This document shows, in pieces, positions 51,001-54,000 of a DNA stretch of 64,000 bases. The stretch is taken from assembly GCA_963783885.1 (NCBI GenBank), contig CAWAPJ010000017.1:37791-101790 (forward strand). Reading direction: 5' to 3'. Source of the stretch: Waddliaceae bacterium (GTDB lineage: Bacteria; Chlamydiota; Chlamydiia; Chlamydiales; SLFE01). Each line of letters begins with the position of its first letter. Within the stretch, counting starts at the first letter, position 1. The position numbers were made by a program.

Positions 51001-54000
51001 TTTTATTAGAGAAACATTTGTCAGATTGAGACTATCGATGGTTATCATGCAAACACTGTCGCCACCAGAGCCTATTTGAGTCGCTCCTTCGTTATTGGGA
51101 TAACTTGGTTTCATCTCTACTTCATCTATTCTCTCTCCAACTGCAGCTCGATAGGCAATCACATTGTTGCAGTTATTCAAAAGCATATTTTGAACTAATT
51201 CGCTAAAAATTTTTCTCTGAGGCTCAAATGCGATCACTATACCATTTTGTCCTACAGCTTTAGAAAGAGTTACCGTATGAGTCCCAATATGAGATCCGAT
51301 ATCTAAAACTACAGAATTTTTTTGGGAATATTTTTTAAGATAATGAGCGACTTCGTCTTCCCAAGGGATGCCTCTTCTTAAAACATTTTTAATGCAGTCA
51401 TCAATAGGATCGATATAAAAACAGCCCAACTCAGTGATATTGACAATGGTGTAATTGTCGAATGGAAAGTAATTAAATAGATATTCATCTTGGGGATCTC
51501 CTATGACAGTGGAACCATCAAAAAAACTCAATTCAGTTGTTGAGATTTTAGTTGTCATGCACAAAAACAAGCATAAGAAAAAAATATAACGTTTCATTTT
51601 CATTTATCTCTTTTAGTTGCGTTTGAACATATACATACTTATTTTTAGATTTTAAGGCAAGTATAAGTTGTTTATACCTGAAATTTAAGGCGGATATGCC
51701 AATTTTATCTTCTTCCGAGTAAGTGTTAATAAGCCCTGATGAGGCCTGCAAGAACGCCTTGAACTTTTACGAGATTTTGATTGATTGTGATGGAATCGAT
51801 GTTTTGATTGCGGCTGACGAGTTCAATTGTGTCGCCGTTAAAAAATATCTGCTTGATAAAAGGAAGGCCGCCCATTGAAACAAGAGCCGTTTCTCCGTCA
51901 TCGACATCATGCTTGGCTTCAATGATCAGAAGATCTCCATCGTCGATCAGCTCTTCCTGGAGGCTAAATCCCTTTGCTTTGATCACATAACTTGATTCAG
52001 GATTCCGGACGAGTCTGGCGGGAACAGTGATTGATTTGGCGTCATGAAAAAGCTCCAGGGCTTCTCCCGATGAAATCATGCCGATATAAGATAAACAGCA
52101 GGTAGTGCCGCAATTCTCTGACGGAGATTCATCAATGAGTGAAATCGATCGTCTTGAGTGGTTCAAAAATTCGATAAGCCCTTTTTTTTGCAGGGCTTTT
52201 AAGTGGTCCGATACCGTTGCCAGTGAAGAGAAGCCAAAGTGCTTCATGATCTCGCGGTAACTCGGAGAATAGCCTTTTTTTTGAATAAAGGACCTGATAA
52301 ATTCAACAATTTCAGACTGTCTTTCTGTAAGGCCTTTCACAAAATAACATCCAATCAAGAGTTAAGGCGACCCACCAGGTAATCAGGGCGGAGATCATGA
52401 CGTCGCTAAAAAAGTGCCCCCCTTGGGCAATTCGGGTCAGTCCAAGCACGCCCCCAAGACCAAAAGCGAGGCAATATCCCAAAATTTCAAGCTTCCGATT
52501 CTTCAGCCGCCTTCCCAGCACTGCCAGGGCAAAAAAATAAAAACCCATCGAGGCGTGGCCGCTTGGCATGGACTTATATTTGTCTGATTTCTCTTGGTAA
52601 AAATCGGGGGAATAGAAAGAGCGGTAAGGGACAATGCCCCCAAAATTTTCAATTTGTCTGGGTCTGGGGCGTCCCCAGCCCGGTTTTAAAAGGACATTGA
52701 TGATCAAGCCTGGCCCGATGATCATTGCTAAAACCAGCATTAGGCATTTGTCTTTGTGTTTTATCAGTGATTTTCTAAAATAAGAAGCTATCAGGATGAT
52801 GAGTGCGCCTCCGGAGACCAGGAAGCCGGGCAACTGAGCGAAATCGAAAATAAACTGGTAAAACCCATTATTTGTAAACTTGTTCCTGGCAGAATCATAA
52901 AAATATGATGAAGCTTGCAAGTCGATATAAGGGGTAAGCGGTGCTAGGATTAAAAACAGCAGAAGGGGTGTCAGCCATCTTTTATTTCGTATGAAAAATT
53001 CATTCATGCTGTGACCGCCGAGGTGGATTTAATAAATTGTTTACTTGCCTTCACACACAGATAAAATACCGGTATATTGACAAGGGTAAAAAATGCTTTA
53101 AATAAGTAGCTATACAAGCTGATGAGAAGGACGATTTCCAGATCCAGCTTTAATCCGCAATATAAAAAGAGGACATTCACAACAAGTGTATCAATAATTT
53201 GCGACACCCAGGTGGACACACCGTTGCGCAGCCATAAATGCCTACCCTTTGTCAGTTCTTTTAAAAATCCAAAGAGGCGGATATCGAGGATTTGGGACAA
53301 TCCATACGCGATTAAAGAGCTGATCAAAGCTATTCCGTTCAGTCCGAAAATTGCAGAAAAAGAGTTTTGGAAAAAATCGGGATCCTCATAGCCGTTTGGG
53401 TGGGGGGGCAGCTTGATTGCAATCATTAGGATCAACTGGGAGAGTATGCAGAGGGAAAAGCCCAGATAAACCATGAGCCTTGCTTTTGGGCTTCCGAAAA
53501 TTTCGGTCACAAGGTCGGCAATGAGAAACGTGAAAGGAAAAAGAATCAGTCCGCAAGGTATGGCGACAGACGGGAAAAAGGGCAAAGCGATCAATTTGAC
53601 AGTGATCAAATTTGCCATGAAAATAATTACAACATAGAGGCAGGCAAAAATTAAATAAAGCAATTCTTTTCTTGAAAACATAAGTGTCAATTATAGACGA
53701 TTTGACCCTTATTTGTAAAAGTGATATGCTCATCTCCAAATTATGGAGGCTTCCGGTGCAAATCACATTTCCGAAAACGCCCCCTTTAGCCGAGACCAAA
53801 TGCCATCATGTTTTTAGCCGGGACTGGCTGGCGCAATTTATTGAAGATAATGCTGCCTGTCCTGAATGTTCACAAACTCTTTCCATTTGGGATATAACAC
53901 CAATTTCCACTACGCCTTCAACAATCCGAAGAATCATTCAAGGCTCAGGGATCTTTTATATAATGACCCTTTTGAATGTCGCTCATGTGTTTTATTCAAT

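What a model noticed while it worked through the whole genome (the two positions that open the first line are those of the whole stretch)
51726..53007. Vertically inherited LexA repressor coupled to a PAP2 gene, with no SOS box at recA
Environmental chlamydiae carry a full-length LexA-family protein whose gene overlaps or abuts the end of a PAP2-family phosphatase gene and has no promoter gap of its own. Its DNA-binding helix is conserved, but the self-cleavage parts are eroding across the family, which suggests a repurposed, non-SOS regulator.
Evidence so far: Pfam LexA_DNA_bind + Peptidase_S24. Present in 16 of 31 and 31 of 120 genomes, absent from 25 of 25 genomes of family f29. PAP2 gene directly upstream in 15 of 16 loci. 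In 15 intact copies the Ala-Gly site is kept in 3, the catalytic Ser in 6, the Lys in 10, all three in none; G000 has Ser-Gly, Ser and Lys. No shared palindrome upstream of 27 recA genes or of dinB/umuD genes. Paper searches found no account of chlamydial LexA.
(Added by a program. Inside this text positions count along the whole contig: contig position 37,791 is position 1 of the stretch shown here. "Call 12" and the like, gene names such as g00115 and contig names such as C1 are that model's own, and its searches are not shown. The text may have been shortened before it was handed on; [...] marks where a part breaks off. The agent that wrote the report below was given it as the finding of a first reader that could run no searches.)

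Follow-up and report, generated by a model that had tools for sequence, protein, structure and literature searches.

The report
Chlamydial LexA losing its self-cleavage switch
Environmental chlamydiae have inherited the bacterial DNA-damage repressor LexA, but many copies have lost the residues that let it cut itself and no repair gene shows a binding site, so it probably now controls something else that is still unknown.

Summary
The lexA gene (51726-52340, minus strand, 204 aa) overlaps a PAP2 phosphatase gene by 29 nt and is real. A family profile matches 109 of 400 genomes of the phylum. The 100 syntenic copies form one clade that follows genome families, so descent is vertical.

One first-reader claim fails: Ala-Gly, Ser and Lys are all intact in 16 of 100 copies and 81 of 227 dereplicated homologues, not in none. 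Erosion is still strong against controls: 134 of 136 other LexA and 30 of 31 chlamydial UmuD keep all three. Most triad-intact copies have also lost neighbouring catalytic-site residues. Triad-broken copies remain under purifying selection (median dN/dS 0.076), so they are not decaying.

No shared box was found at recA, umuD, recN, uvrB, its own operon or genome-wide. The PAP2 link is gene order, not obligatory: 26 genomes keep PAP2 without lexA.

Best reading: a cleavage-independent, non-SOS regulator with unknown targets, as described for Synechocystis LexA. The gene was already tabulated in a 2015 supplement.

The parts
51726..52340 (-). lexA-family gene, GTG start, 204 aa
   Evidence: ORF, sequence, Pfam and NCBIfam, LexA fold; N-terminal MKGLT conserved across the family
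52149..52337 (-). Winged-helix DNA-binding domain (residues 2-64); recognition helix SLATVSDH at residues 39-46
   Evidence: PF01726 E 1.5e-22; family consensus SLGSVYKH, each position 67-97% conserved in 227 homologues
52065..52070 (-). Cleavage-site position: Ser91-Gly92 in place of Ala-Gly
   Evidence: Alignment to solved LexA sequences and to E. coli A84-G85
51750..52082 (-). S24 peptidase/dimerisation domain with Ser126 (51963-51965) and Lys163 (51852-51854). Leu follows the Ser, Pro-Phe precede Ile-Lys, there is no acidic patch, and Ser-Arg-Asn replaces Pro-x-Asn
   Evidence: PF00717 E 2.7e-16; residue mapping; homodimer model through this domain
52312..53007 (-). PAP2-family membrane phosphatase, LpxF-like but below the LpxF cut-off; overlaps the lexA start by 29 nt
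   Evidence: PF01569 E 1.8e-23; NF045633 125 bits against a cut-off of 400; K-x6-RP, PSGH and R-x5-H-x3-D motifs visible in the sequence (motif definitions recalled)
53004..53690 (-). Queuosine-precursor transporter (Vut_1), first gene of the probable operon; ATGA overlap with PAP2
   Evidence: TIGR00697 146.8 bits against 50.95; upstream of PAP2 or lexA in 18 of 100 loci
53690..53719 (-). Best consensus promoter match ahead of the operon (TTTACA-18-TATAAT); candidate only
   Evidence: 11 of 12 matches; 8 sites found against 5.6 +/- 2.5 in shuffles, so not evidence of function
50785..51603 (-). FkbM-family methyltransferase between lexA and pssA in this genome
   Evidence: TIGR01444 93.8 bits; most relatives with pssA have it directly after lexA
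49908..50714 (+). pssA-like CDP-alcohol phosphatidyltransferase, the conserved convergent neighbour
   Evidence: PF01066; within the fetched flanks of 57 of 100 loci

Best explanation
It is the ancestral chlamydial LexA, now uncoupled from the DNA-damage response in most lineages. SHOWN: one vertically inherited clade at a conserved rmuC / PAP2 / lexA / pssA locus. The earliest-branching copies (f34-like) keep a canonical catalytic site and face rmuC directly. In the rest, residues around the catalytic pair changed early, and Ala-Gly, Ser or Lys were then lost in many separate lineages, while both domains stayed under purifying selection. INFERRED: repair genes lost their operators and are not LexA-inducible, so selection for RecA-triggered self-cleavage lapsed. 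The protein persists as a dimer, held by its C-terminal domain, that binds DNA through the conserved helix and regulates a small non-SOS gene set. Its amount would be set by transcription of its operon (in G000 Vut_1-PAP2-lexA, probably translationally coupled), not by proteolysis. The G000 copy is probably cut poorly or not at all. RecA-dependent control of mutagenesis survives at UmuD, which keeps its cleavage residues.
For: Clade of 100 rows at SH-aLRT 97; family labels need 29 changes (minimum 26, shuffled mean 63.7). Rooted tree: f34-like copies first, the other 27 a clade at 96. Full triad in 81 of 227 against 134 of 136 control LexA and 30 of 31 UmuD (counted by eye). The catalytic Ser column is no better kept than the median column (57%; 52% of columns are better kept). 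Thr two before the Lys 98% against 5%, Met after the Ser 100% against 3%, Pro-x-Asn 89/97% against 2/31%, acidic residues before the Lys 2.25 against 0.93. Among 81 triad-intact copies only 6 keep that Thr and 6 the Met. The acidic patch is needed for RecA-mediated cleavage in E. coli (PMC9926225, passages). Median dN/dS 0.076 in triad-broken pairs (7 of 15 with measurable dS) and 0.091 in intact pairs (4 of 5); LexA changes at 0.69 and 0.68 of the PAP2 rate. No dyad passes multiple testing in 199 upstream regions. Six recalled LexA boxes occur at background rates. EM recovers a box planted in about 30% of recA regions but nothing informative in the real sets. Homodimer model 0.43 against best control 0.00; the mark was reached by 20 of 30 solved pairs and 1 of 23 single chains; contacts agree at least 76%, pLDDT at least 77; probably by likeness to solved LexA dimers. 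Transcribed in Waddlia chondrophila and shifting with its PAP2 gene (log2FC -0.49 and -0.56; PMC7760296 supplement rows).
Against: No target or operator was found anywhere, including genome-wide in G000 and in 386 orthologous promoter pairs with G341. That last test did not recover CIRCE as a shared motif, so it is insensitive. The triad is intact in 16-52% of copies depending on the sample, slightly more than independence predicts (81 against 61.6), though not beyond other column pairs once divergence is allowed for (13.6% of null pairs as high). The hydrophobic RecA pocket is still hydrophobic. Twenty-six genomes have lost the gene, so it is dispensable. pc1268 and pc1269 are missing from the Protochlamydia expression table (PMC5451489 supplement). 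The control LexA set was chosen by similarity to an intact query and the UmuD set by score, which favours intact sites. The root may be pulled by the same canonical residues. dS is mostly above 1, so dN/dS is rough.
Confidence: 0.55

Rival explanations
1. It is still a DNA-damage repressor in the lineages that keep the triad (above all f34-like copies), with a very small regulon or a degenerate, lineage-specific box that my searches missed. Only the broken copies are uncoupled.
For: Triad intact in 81 of 227. Six copies keep the canonical Ala-Gly, Ser-Met and Lys, most with Thr and Pro-x-Asn too. rmuC is a neighbour in 50 of 100 loci. G341 has one Cheo-like site with one mismatch between a -35 and a -10 upstream of lexA (seen). 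LexA boxes differ between phyla and can be direct repeats (PMC7739468, passages).
Against: No box at 30 recA regions, of which 16 are from triad-intact genomes. The Cheo-like site is not repeated in G314 or G232, and one-mismatch sites occur at 2.7-4.5% of all promoters. umuD was found in only 7 of 16 triad-intact genomes. Intact and broken copies evolve alike.
Confidence: 0.2
2. It is kept for a role other than sequence-specific repression: a low-specificity DNA-binding dimer, or a non-cleavable partner that docks on RecA filaments and damps UmuD cleavage or recombination.
For: No operator found. The RecA F203 pocket residues (bioRxiv 10.1101/2023.10.30.564768, passages) stay hydrophobic: Tyr 96%, Leu 89%, Ile 77%. 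Chlamydial RecA keeps Phe or Tyr at that position in 30 of 30.
Against: Those residues also form the fold's core (inference). The acidic RecA-contact patch is reduced. The recognition helix is held nearly fixed, as expected for a specific site. The Tyr203/Thr153 pairing described in that preprint does not covary here: Thr occurs with 12 of 12 Phe and 11 of 18 Tyr RecAs (read).
Confidence: 0.13
3. It is a relic in slow decay, kept only by its overlap with the PAP2 gene.
For: Lost from 26 PAP2-bearing genomes, 9 with PAP2 within about 420 nt of pssA; absent from one expression table.
Against: dN/dS is about 0.08 in triad-broken pairs and the gene changes more slowly than PAP2. Only 1 of 109 matches has internal stops, G379, where the neighbouring genes are frameshifted too. 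It is also kept where it does not overlap PAP2.
Confidence: 0.06
4. It is a dedicated regulator of the neighbouring lipid genes (PAP2/LpxF-like, pssA), linking envelope remodelling to a LexA-type switch.
For: Gene overlap in 63 of 100 loci; similar family ranges of PAP2 (124 of 400) and lexA (109 of 400); co-regulation in Waddlia.
Against: No box upstream of 98 operon heads. PAP2 occurs without lexA in 26 genomes, and lexA without this PAP2 in f34, f20 and f25. pssA does not shift with lexA in Waddlia (+0.16, not significant).
Confidence: 0.06

Closest known systems
Canonical LexA SOS repressor (E. coli, Thermotoga maritima; TIGR00498, COG1974)
   Same: Two-domain build, length, fold (Foldseek E 1.5e-16 to 3k2z), above the curated cut-off, predicted C-terminal dimer.
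   Different: Cleavage site Ser-Gly in G000; triad broken in 84 of 100 copies; Thr, Met, Pro-x-Asn and the acidic patch lost in most of the family; no box at its own operon or at repair genes.
Synechocystis sp. PCC 6803 LexA (non-SOS)
   Same: Ala-Gly changed to Gly-Gly and the catalytic Ser replaced, SOS genes outside its regulon, other functions proposed (PMC3091678, passages).
   Different: That paper describes it as an exception among cyanobacteria, with reported targets. Here the uncoupling spans about 25 family codes, is stepwise, is repeated in many lineages and has no known target.
Chlamydial lexA, orthologue group ChlamOG_746 (pc1269, Q6MBQ6)
   Same: Same gene by its pssA neighbour (pc1270); listed in 9 environmental chlamydiae and no Chlamydiaceae (PMC4652624 Table S1 row).
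   Different: Only tabulated: the main text has no occurrence of LexA or SOS, and none occurs in the Waddlia ChIP-seq paper on 10 other regulators (PMC4989314).
Acinetobacter UmuDAb (side finding)
   Same: A UmuD with an N-terminal extension and an upstream TTGA...GTAC...TCAA palindrome. The Acinetobacter operator is TTGA(N4)GTWAC(N4)TCAA (PMC11332147, passages).
   Different: The chlamydial site is TGAW-N4-GTAC-N4-WTCA. It occurs in genomes that also carry lexA, and I saw it tied only to umuD. Sequence kinship of the extension to UmuDAb is recalled, not aligned; a DdrR partner was not sought.

Membership tests
LexA protein family | LexA DNA-binding domain plus S24 domain, about 200 aa, over the TIGR00498 cut-off | tested here: met
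   145.9 bits against 110.95
LexA protein family | LexA fold | tested here: met
   Model mean pLDDT 92.9; ten best PDB matches are LexA
Canonical LexA SOS repressor | Ala-Gly scissile bond | tested here: not met
   G000 has Ser-Gly; family 34 of 100 and 123 of 227; control 134 of 136
Canonical LexA SOS repressor | Ser-Lys catalytic pair | tested here: met
   Met in G000 (Ser126, Lys163); in the family Ser 44 and Lys 78 of 100
Canonical LexA SOS repressor | Conserved surroundings of the active site and the acidic RecA-contact patch | tested here: not met
   G000 lacks the Thr, Met, Pro and acidic patch; family frequencies
Canonical LexA SOS repressor | Shared operator upstream of lexA, recA and error-prone polymerase genes | tested here: not met
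   positive controls recovered; a degenerate box in under about 30% of regions could be missed
Canonical LexA SOS repressor | RecA*-stimulated self-cleavage and DNA-damage induction | not testable with these tools
   Needs purified protein or treated cells
Canonical LexA SOS repressor | Dimer through the C-terminal domain | tested here: inconclusive
   Model 0.43 against best control 0.00; may pass by likeness to solved dimers
Synechocystis-type non-SOS LexA | Cleavage residues altered and SOS genes without its box | tested here: met
   84 of 100 copies lack at least one triad element; no box. G000 itself keeps Ser and Lys
Synechocystis-type non-SOS LexA | Regulates identified non-repair genes | tested here: inconclusive
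   No motif in G000 genome-wide or shared with G341; low sensitivity
Lipid A 4'-phosphatase LpxF (neighbour gene) | NF045633 equivalog cut-off | tested here: not met
   125 bits against 400; the Waddlia table gives KO lpxF for its orthologue

The most novel reading that the evidence does not exclude
Across much of the chlamydial phylum LexA was stripped of its SOS role in steps and became an uncleavable, sequence-specific regulator of an undescribed, non-repair regulon (for example developmental or envelope genes). Damage control of the mutagenic polymerase passed to UmuD cleavage and, in some lineages, to a self-repressing UmuDAb-like protein with an Acinetobacter-like operator.
Probability: 0.3. 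Interest if true: 0.75.

Novelty: new variant of a known kind. Interest (0 to 1): 0.5.

Why it matters
Chlamydiae have few transcription factors (12-15 in Chlamydiaceae, up to 37 in environmental species; PMC4652624, section 3 part 1), and LexA is usually described as absent from Chlamydia (PMC13148647, passage). A conserved LexA with no known regulon in a cultivable species where ChIP-seq already works (PMC4989314, passages) is directly testable. The family also offers a graded series from canonical, through triad-intact but altered, to triad-broken and deleted. That shows how an SOS network is dismantled in intracellular bacteria, with natural variants for testing which residues matter for RecA-triggered cleavage.

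Tried and rejected
Coordinates read as contig positions (13936-15217): unrelated genes there; rejected.

Exact dyad search against dinucleotide shuffles: recA and ordinary umuD gave best z 4.7 and 5.0 in only 4 sequences each, against null maxima of 4.1-4.5; operon heads stayed within the null. The strong signals directly upstream of lexA (z up to 10) are mostly codons of PAP2 catalytic motifs.

Pooled recA, recN, uvrB, umuD and lexA regions: best palindrome log p -4.1, below the roughly -5.2 needed; one 5-mer direct repeat reached -6.4 in 3 regions and was not followed up. In that set the G341 lexA region was truncated by my gene caller; it is covered.

G000 genome-wide: the strongest palindromes were repeat-element ends; GCTC-N8-GAGC looks like tRNA arms. 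G341, 1.4 of 1.72 Mb: nothing after masking repeats. The recA EM motif has 7 bits and scattered positions.

RecA Tyr203 / LexA Thr153 covariation: not seen.

ESM Atlas returned only generic LexA clusters. The named-genome scan gave 2 loci, both Parachlamydiaceae.

Rows dropped before the count of 100: L002, L083, L103, L104, which are non-syntenic and form a separate clade. Fourteen of 150 control proteins were dropped by length. The careful tree did not finish; the quick tree is cited.

Paper searches for an account of chlamydial LexA: (listings). Term searches in PMC10448858, PMC10239878, PMC2878342, PMC7760296, PMC4652624 and PMC4989314 found no discussion of it in the main texts. The Verrucomicrobia LexA paper (Erill 2016) was not held, so I saw nothing of it, and it may mention chlamydiae. 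One supplement file of PMC4652624 and five image PDFs of PMC5451489 could not be searched.

Full report
OBSERVATION. The coordinates are window coordinates. On the minus strand lie a queuosine-precursor transporter (53004-53690), a PAP2 phosphatase (52312-53007) and a LexA-family gene (51726-52340 from a GTG start, 204 aa). The overlaps are 4 and 29 nt. The last gene scores over the curated LexA cut-off, and its model matches solved LexA structures. Aligned to solved sequences it has Ser-Gly at the Ala-Gly site, with Ser126 and Lys163 in place. Named homologues are from Waddlia, Protochlamydia and Parachlamydiaceae. G000 holds one other S24 protein, an intact UmuD in a umuDC operon, plus recA and a second Y-family polymerase.

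DISTRIBUTION AND DESCENT. TIGR00498 passed its cut-off in 89 of 401 genomes. A profile from 43 family members matched 109 of 400; one of these, G001, is not a family member, and G320 was missed there but found. It was not found in f4 (0/29), f6 (0/69), f8 (0/35), f9 (0/90) or f30 (0/17). I take f4, with genomes of about 1.0-1.4 Mb, to be the pathogenic family; that is an inference. Of 104 LexA-like loci fetched, 100 share neighbours: PAP2 in 86, pssA in 57, rmuC in 50, Vut_1 in 18, within limited flanks. These 100 form one side of a branch (SH-aLRT 97, quick tree). Family labels need 29 changes against a minimum of 26 and a shuffled mean of 63.7. For 30 genomes, LexA and RecA tree distances correlate at Spearman 0.50. 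Vertical descent is therefore supported.

THE PAP2 LINK. In 63 loci the genes overlap and in 10 they lie within 47 nt. In W. chondrophila the two transcripts shift together under iron starvation (PMC7760296, supplement rows). The link is not obligatory. This PAP2 occurs in 124 of 400 genomes. Of 37 PAP2 loci not yet tied to a lexA, 6 had a diverged copy, 3 had the gene elsewhere, 2 ended at a contig edge and 26 had none; those 26 also have no match. Conversely, f34, f20 and f25 carry lexA without this PAP2, and in f3 a small divergent gene intervenes.

CLEAVAGE APPARATUS. In 100 genome copies Ala-Gly is kept in 34, Ser in 44, Lys in 78 and all three in 16. In 185 score-ranked database homologues all three are kept in 97; in 227 sequences dereplicated at 80% from both sets, in 81. 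The contrast with controls remains large: 134 of 136 non-chlamydial LexA of similar diversity (41% against 45% mean identity) and 30 of 31 chlamydial UmuD. Both controls were selected by similarity or score, which favours intact sites. Beyond the triad, the Thr two before the Lys (98% against 5%), the Met after the Ser (100% against 3%), Pro-x-Asn (89/97% against 2/31%) and the acidic patch (2.25 against 0.93 residues) are lost, also in most triad-intact copies. The acidic patch and a hydrophobic pocket mediate RecA contact in E. coli (PMC9926225 and bioRxiv 10.1101/2023.10.30.564768, passages); the pocket stays hydrophobic here. With an unnamed outgroup, copies with a canonical site (f34 and four database proteins) branch first and the other 27 form a clade at 96. 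This suggests a stepwise history, though the root may be biased by those same residues. Intact and broken triads are interleaved through the tree, so later losses were repeated.

SELECTION. In 22 close pairs dN/dS was 0.04-0.21 where dS could be measured. The median was 0.076 for triad-broken pairs and 0.091 for intact pairs, and LexA changed at about 0.7 of the PAP2 rate in both groups. The DNA-binding domain is better kept than the peptidase domain (54% against 43% mean identity). The only match with internal stops is in an assembly whose neighbouring genes are also frameshifted. A homodimer model passes (0.43, best control 0.00; mark reached by 20 of 30 solved pairs and 1 of 23 single chains; contacts agree at least 76%; pLDDT at least 77), probably by likeness to solved LexA dimers. 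The protein is therefore maintained, not decaying. Against this, pc1268 and pc1269 are missing from the Protochlamydia expression table (PMC5451489, supplement rows; I did not see its inclusion threshold).

OPERATORS. I searched 30 recA, 31 umuD, 23 recN and 27 uvrB loci and about 98 lexA loci; only 12 uvrB upstream regions could be extracted. I used exact palindromic and direct-repeat dyads, six recalled boxes with one mismatch and EM. Nothing was shared across genes. The methods did find a planted box and a real one: 6 of 31 umuD genes have an N-terminal extension and carry TGAW-N4-GTAC-N4-WTCA about 200-300 nt upstream of the matched domain, against 0 of the other 25 (the script's extension test flags five, the sixth, L134, was read by eye). 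The pattern was derived from those six. It recurs about 180-250 nt upstream of further S24 matches in G230, G118, G115, G270, G320, G173 and a second G201 copy; genome-wide the pattern also hits by chance. It resembles the Acinetobacter UmuDAb operator (PMC11332147, passages). Genome-wide scans of G000 (843 regions) and G341 gave no candidate for LexA; these are insensitive to regulons of two or three operons.

MECHANISM. Most likely (0.55): an ancestral SOS repressor whose repair-gene operators were lost, after which selection for RecA-triggered cleavage lapsed. It now acts as a constitutive dimeric DNA-binding regulator of a small non-SOS gene set, dosed by its operon. Descent, erosion, selection and the absence of a detectable box are shown; DNA binding, non-cleavage and the targets are inferred. 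Rivals: residual SOS repressor in intact lineages (0.20), low-specificity binder or RecA damper (0.13), relic (0.06), lipid-gene regulator (0.06).

WHAT IS KNOWN. The gene is in Table S1 of Domman and Horn 2015 (PMC4652624; supplement row; I read section 3 parts 1-3 of 7; no LexA in the main text). A 2026 paper still names Chlamydia among bacteria that often lack LexA (PMC13148647, passage). A LexA uncoupled from SOS with altered cleavage residues is described for Synechocystis PCC 6803 (PMC3091678, passages). My searches found no study of the chlamydial protein's residues or regulon; one relevant paper was not held. It is a member of the LexA protein family but fails the tests for a canonical SOS repressor.

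VERDICT. Real, partly as described; a new variant of a known kind; interest 0.5.

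Noticed in passing
L119, L128, L131, L134, L136, L143 (umuD loci of G023, G376, G304, G360, G201, G368); L184 (G320): UmuD with an N-terminal extension containing G(A/S)GRP and an upstream palindrome TGAW-N4-GTAC-N4-WTCA (6 of 6, against 0 of 25 ordinary umuD), close to the Acinetobacter UmuDAb operator. Probably a self-repressing umuDC operon; worth a study of its own.
   Followed up: partly
G285:C65:83989-86822, G284:C5:24570-27251, G039:C24:140573-143191: umuD lies about 1.3-1.5 kb upstream of recA on the same strand in three genomes, an SOS-like gene order with no box found.
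   Followed up: partly
L022:1057-1416 and other f3 loci: A conserved gene of about 120 aa lies between PAP2 and lexA, divergent from lexA with only 15-100 nt between the starts. It looks receiver-like by eye but has no Pfam hit.
   Followed up: partly
L002 (G104), L083 (G001), L103 (G137), L104 (G342): LexA-like genes outside the syntenic clade; L002 has an intact triad and lies beside a recombinase-like gene, so it may be mobile.
   Followed up: partly
G000 genome-wide, e.g. C1:89047-90035, C17:25937-26925: A multicopy element of about 1 kb bounded by hairpin-rich ends containing GGCAAGGG-N4-CCCTTGCC (24 intergenic hits), plus other short palindromic repeat families; 228 kb of the genome is masked as repeats.
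   Followed up: no
L113:351-917 (G000:C1): umuDC is divergent from two tandem 78-86 aa genes; the nearer one is DUF5407, and a similar gene start faces umuD in G014.
   Followed up: no
window 53684-55252: Two tandem paralogues with weak RING/MIZ-type zinc-finger hits below cut-off followed by hydrophobic segments.
   Followed up: no
window 55422-57164: A GH18 domain preceded by a duplicated N-terminal repeat and Ser/Thr-rich linkers.
   Followed up: no
G000:C19:66254 and C10:10007: Two intergenic stretches share a CACAACTTT...GTGTGAGAAATG-like sequence; one is upstream of a helicase-like gene. Unexplained.
   Followed up: no
L206 (G379): lexA, PAP2, Vut_1 and pssA are all frameshifted, which suggests assembly indels, not pseudogenes.
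   Followed up: partly
L261: E. coli lexA also neighbours a lipid gene, dgkA; probably coincidence.
   Followed up: no
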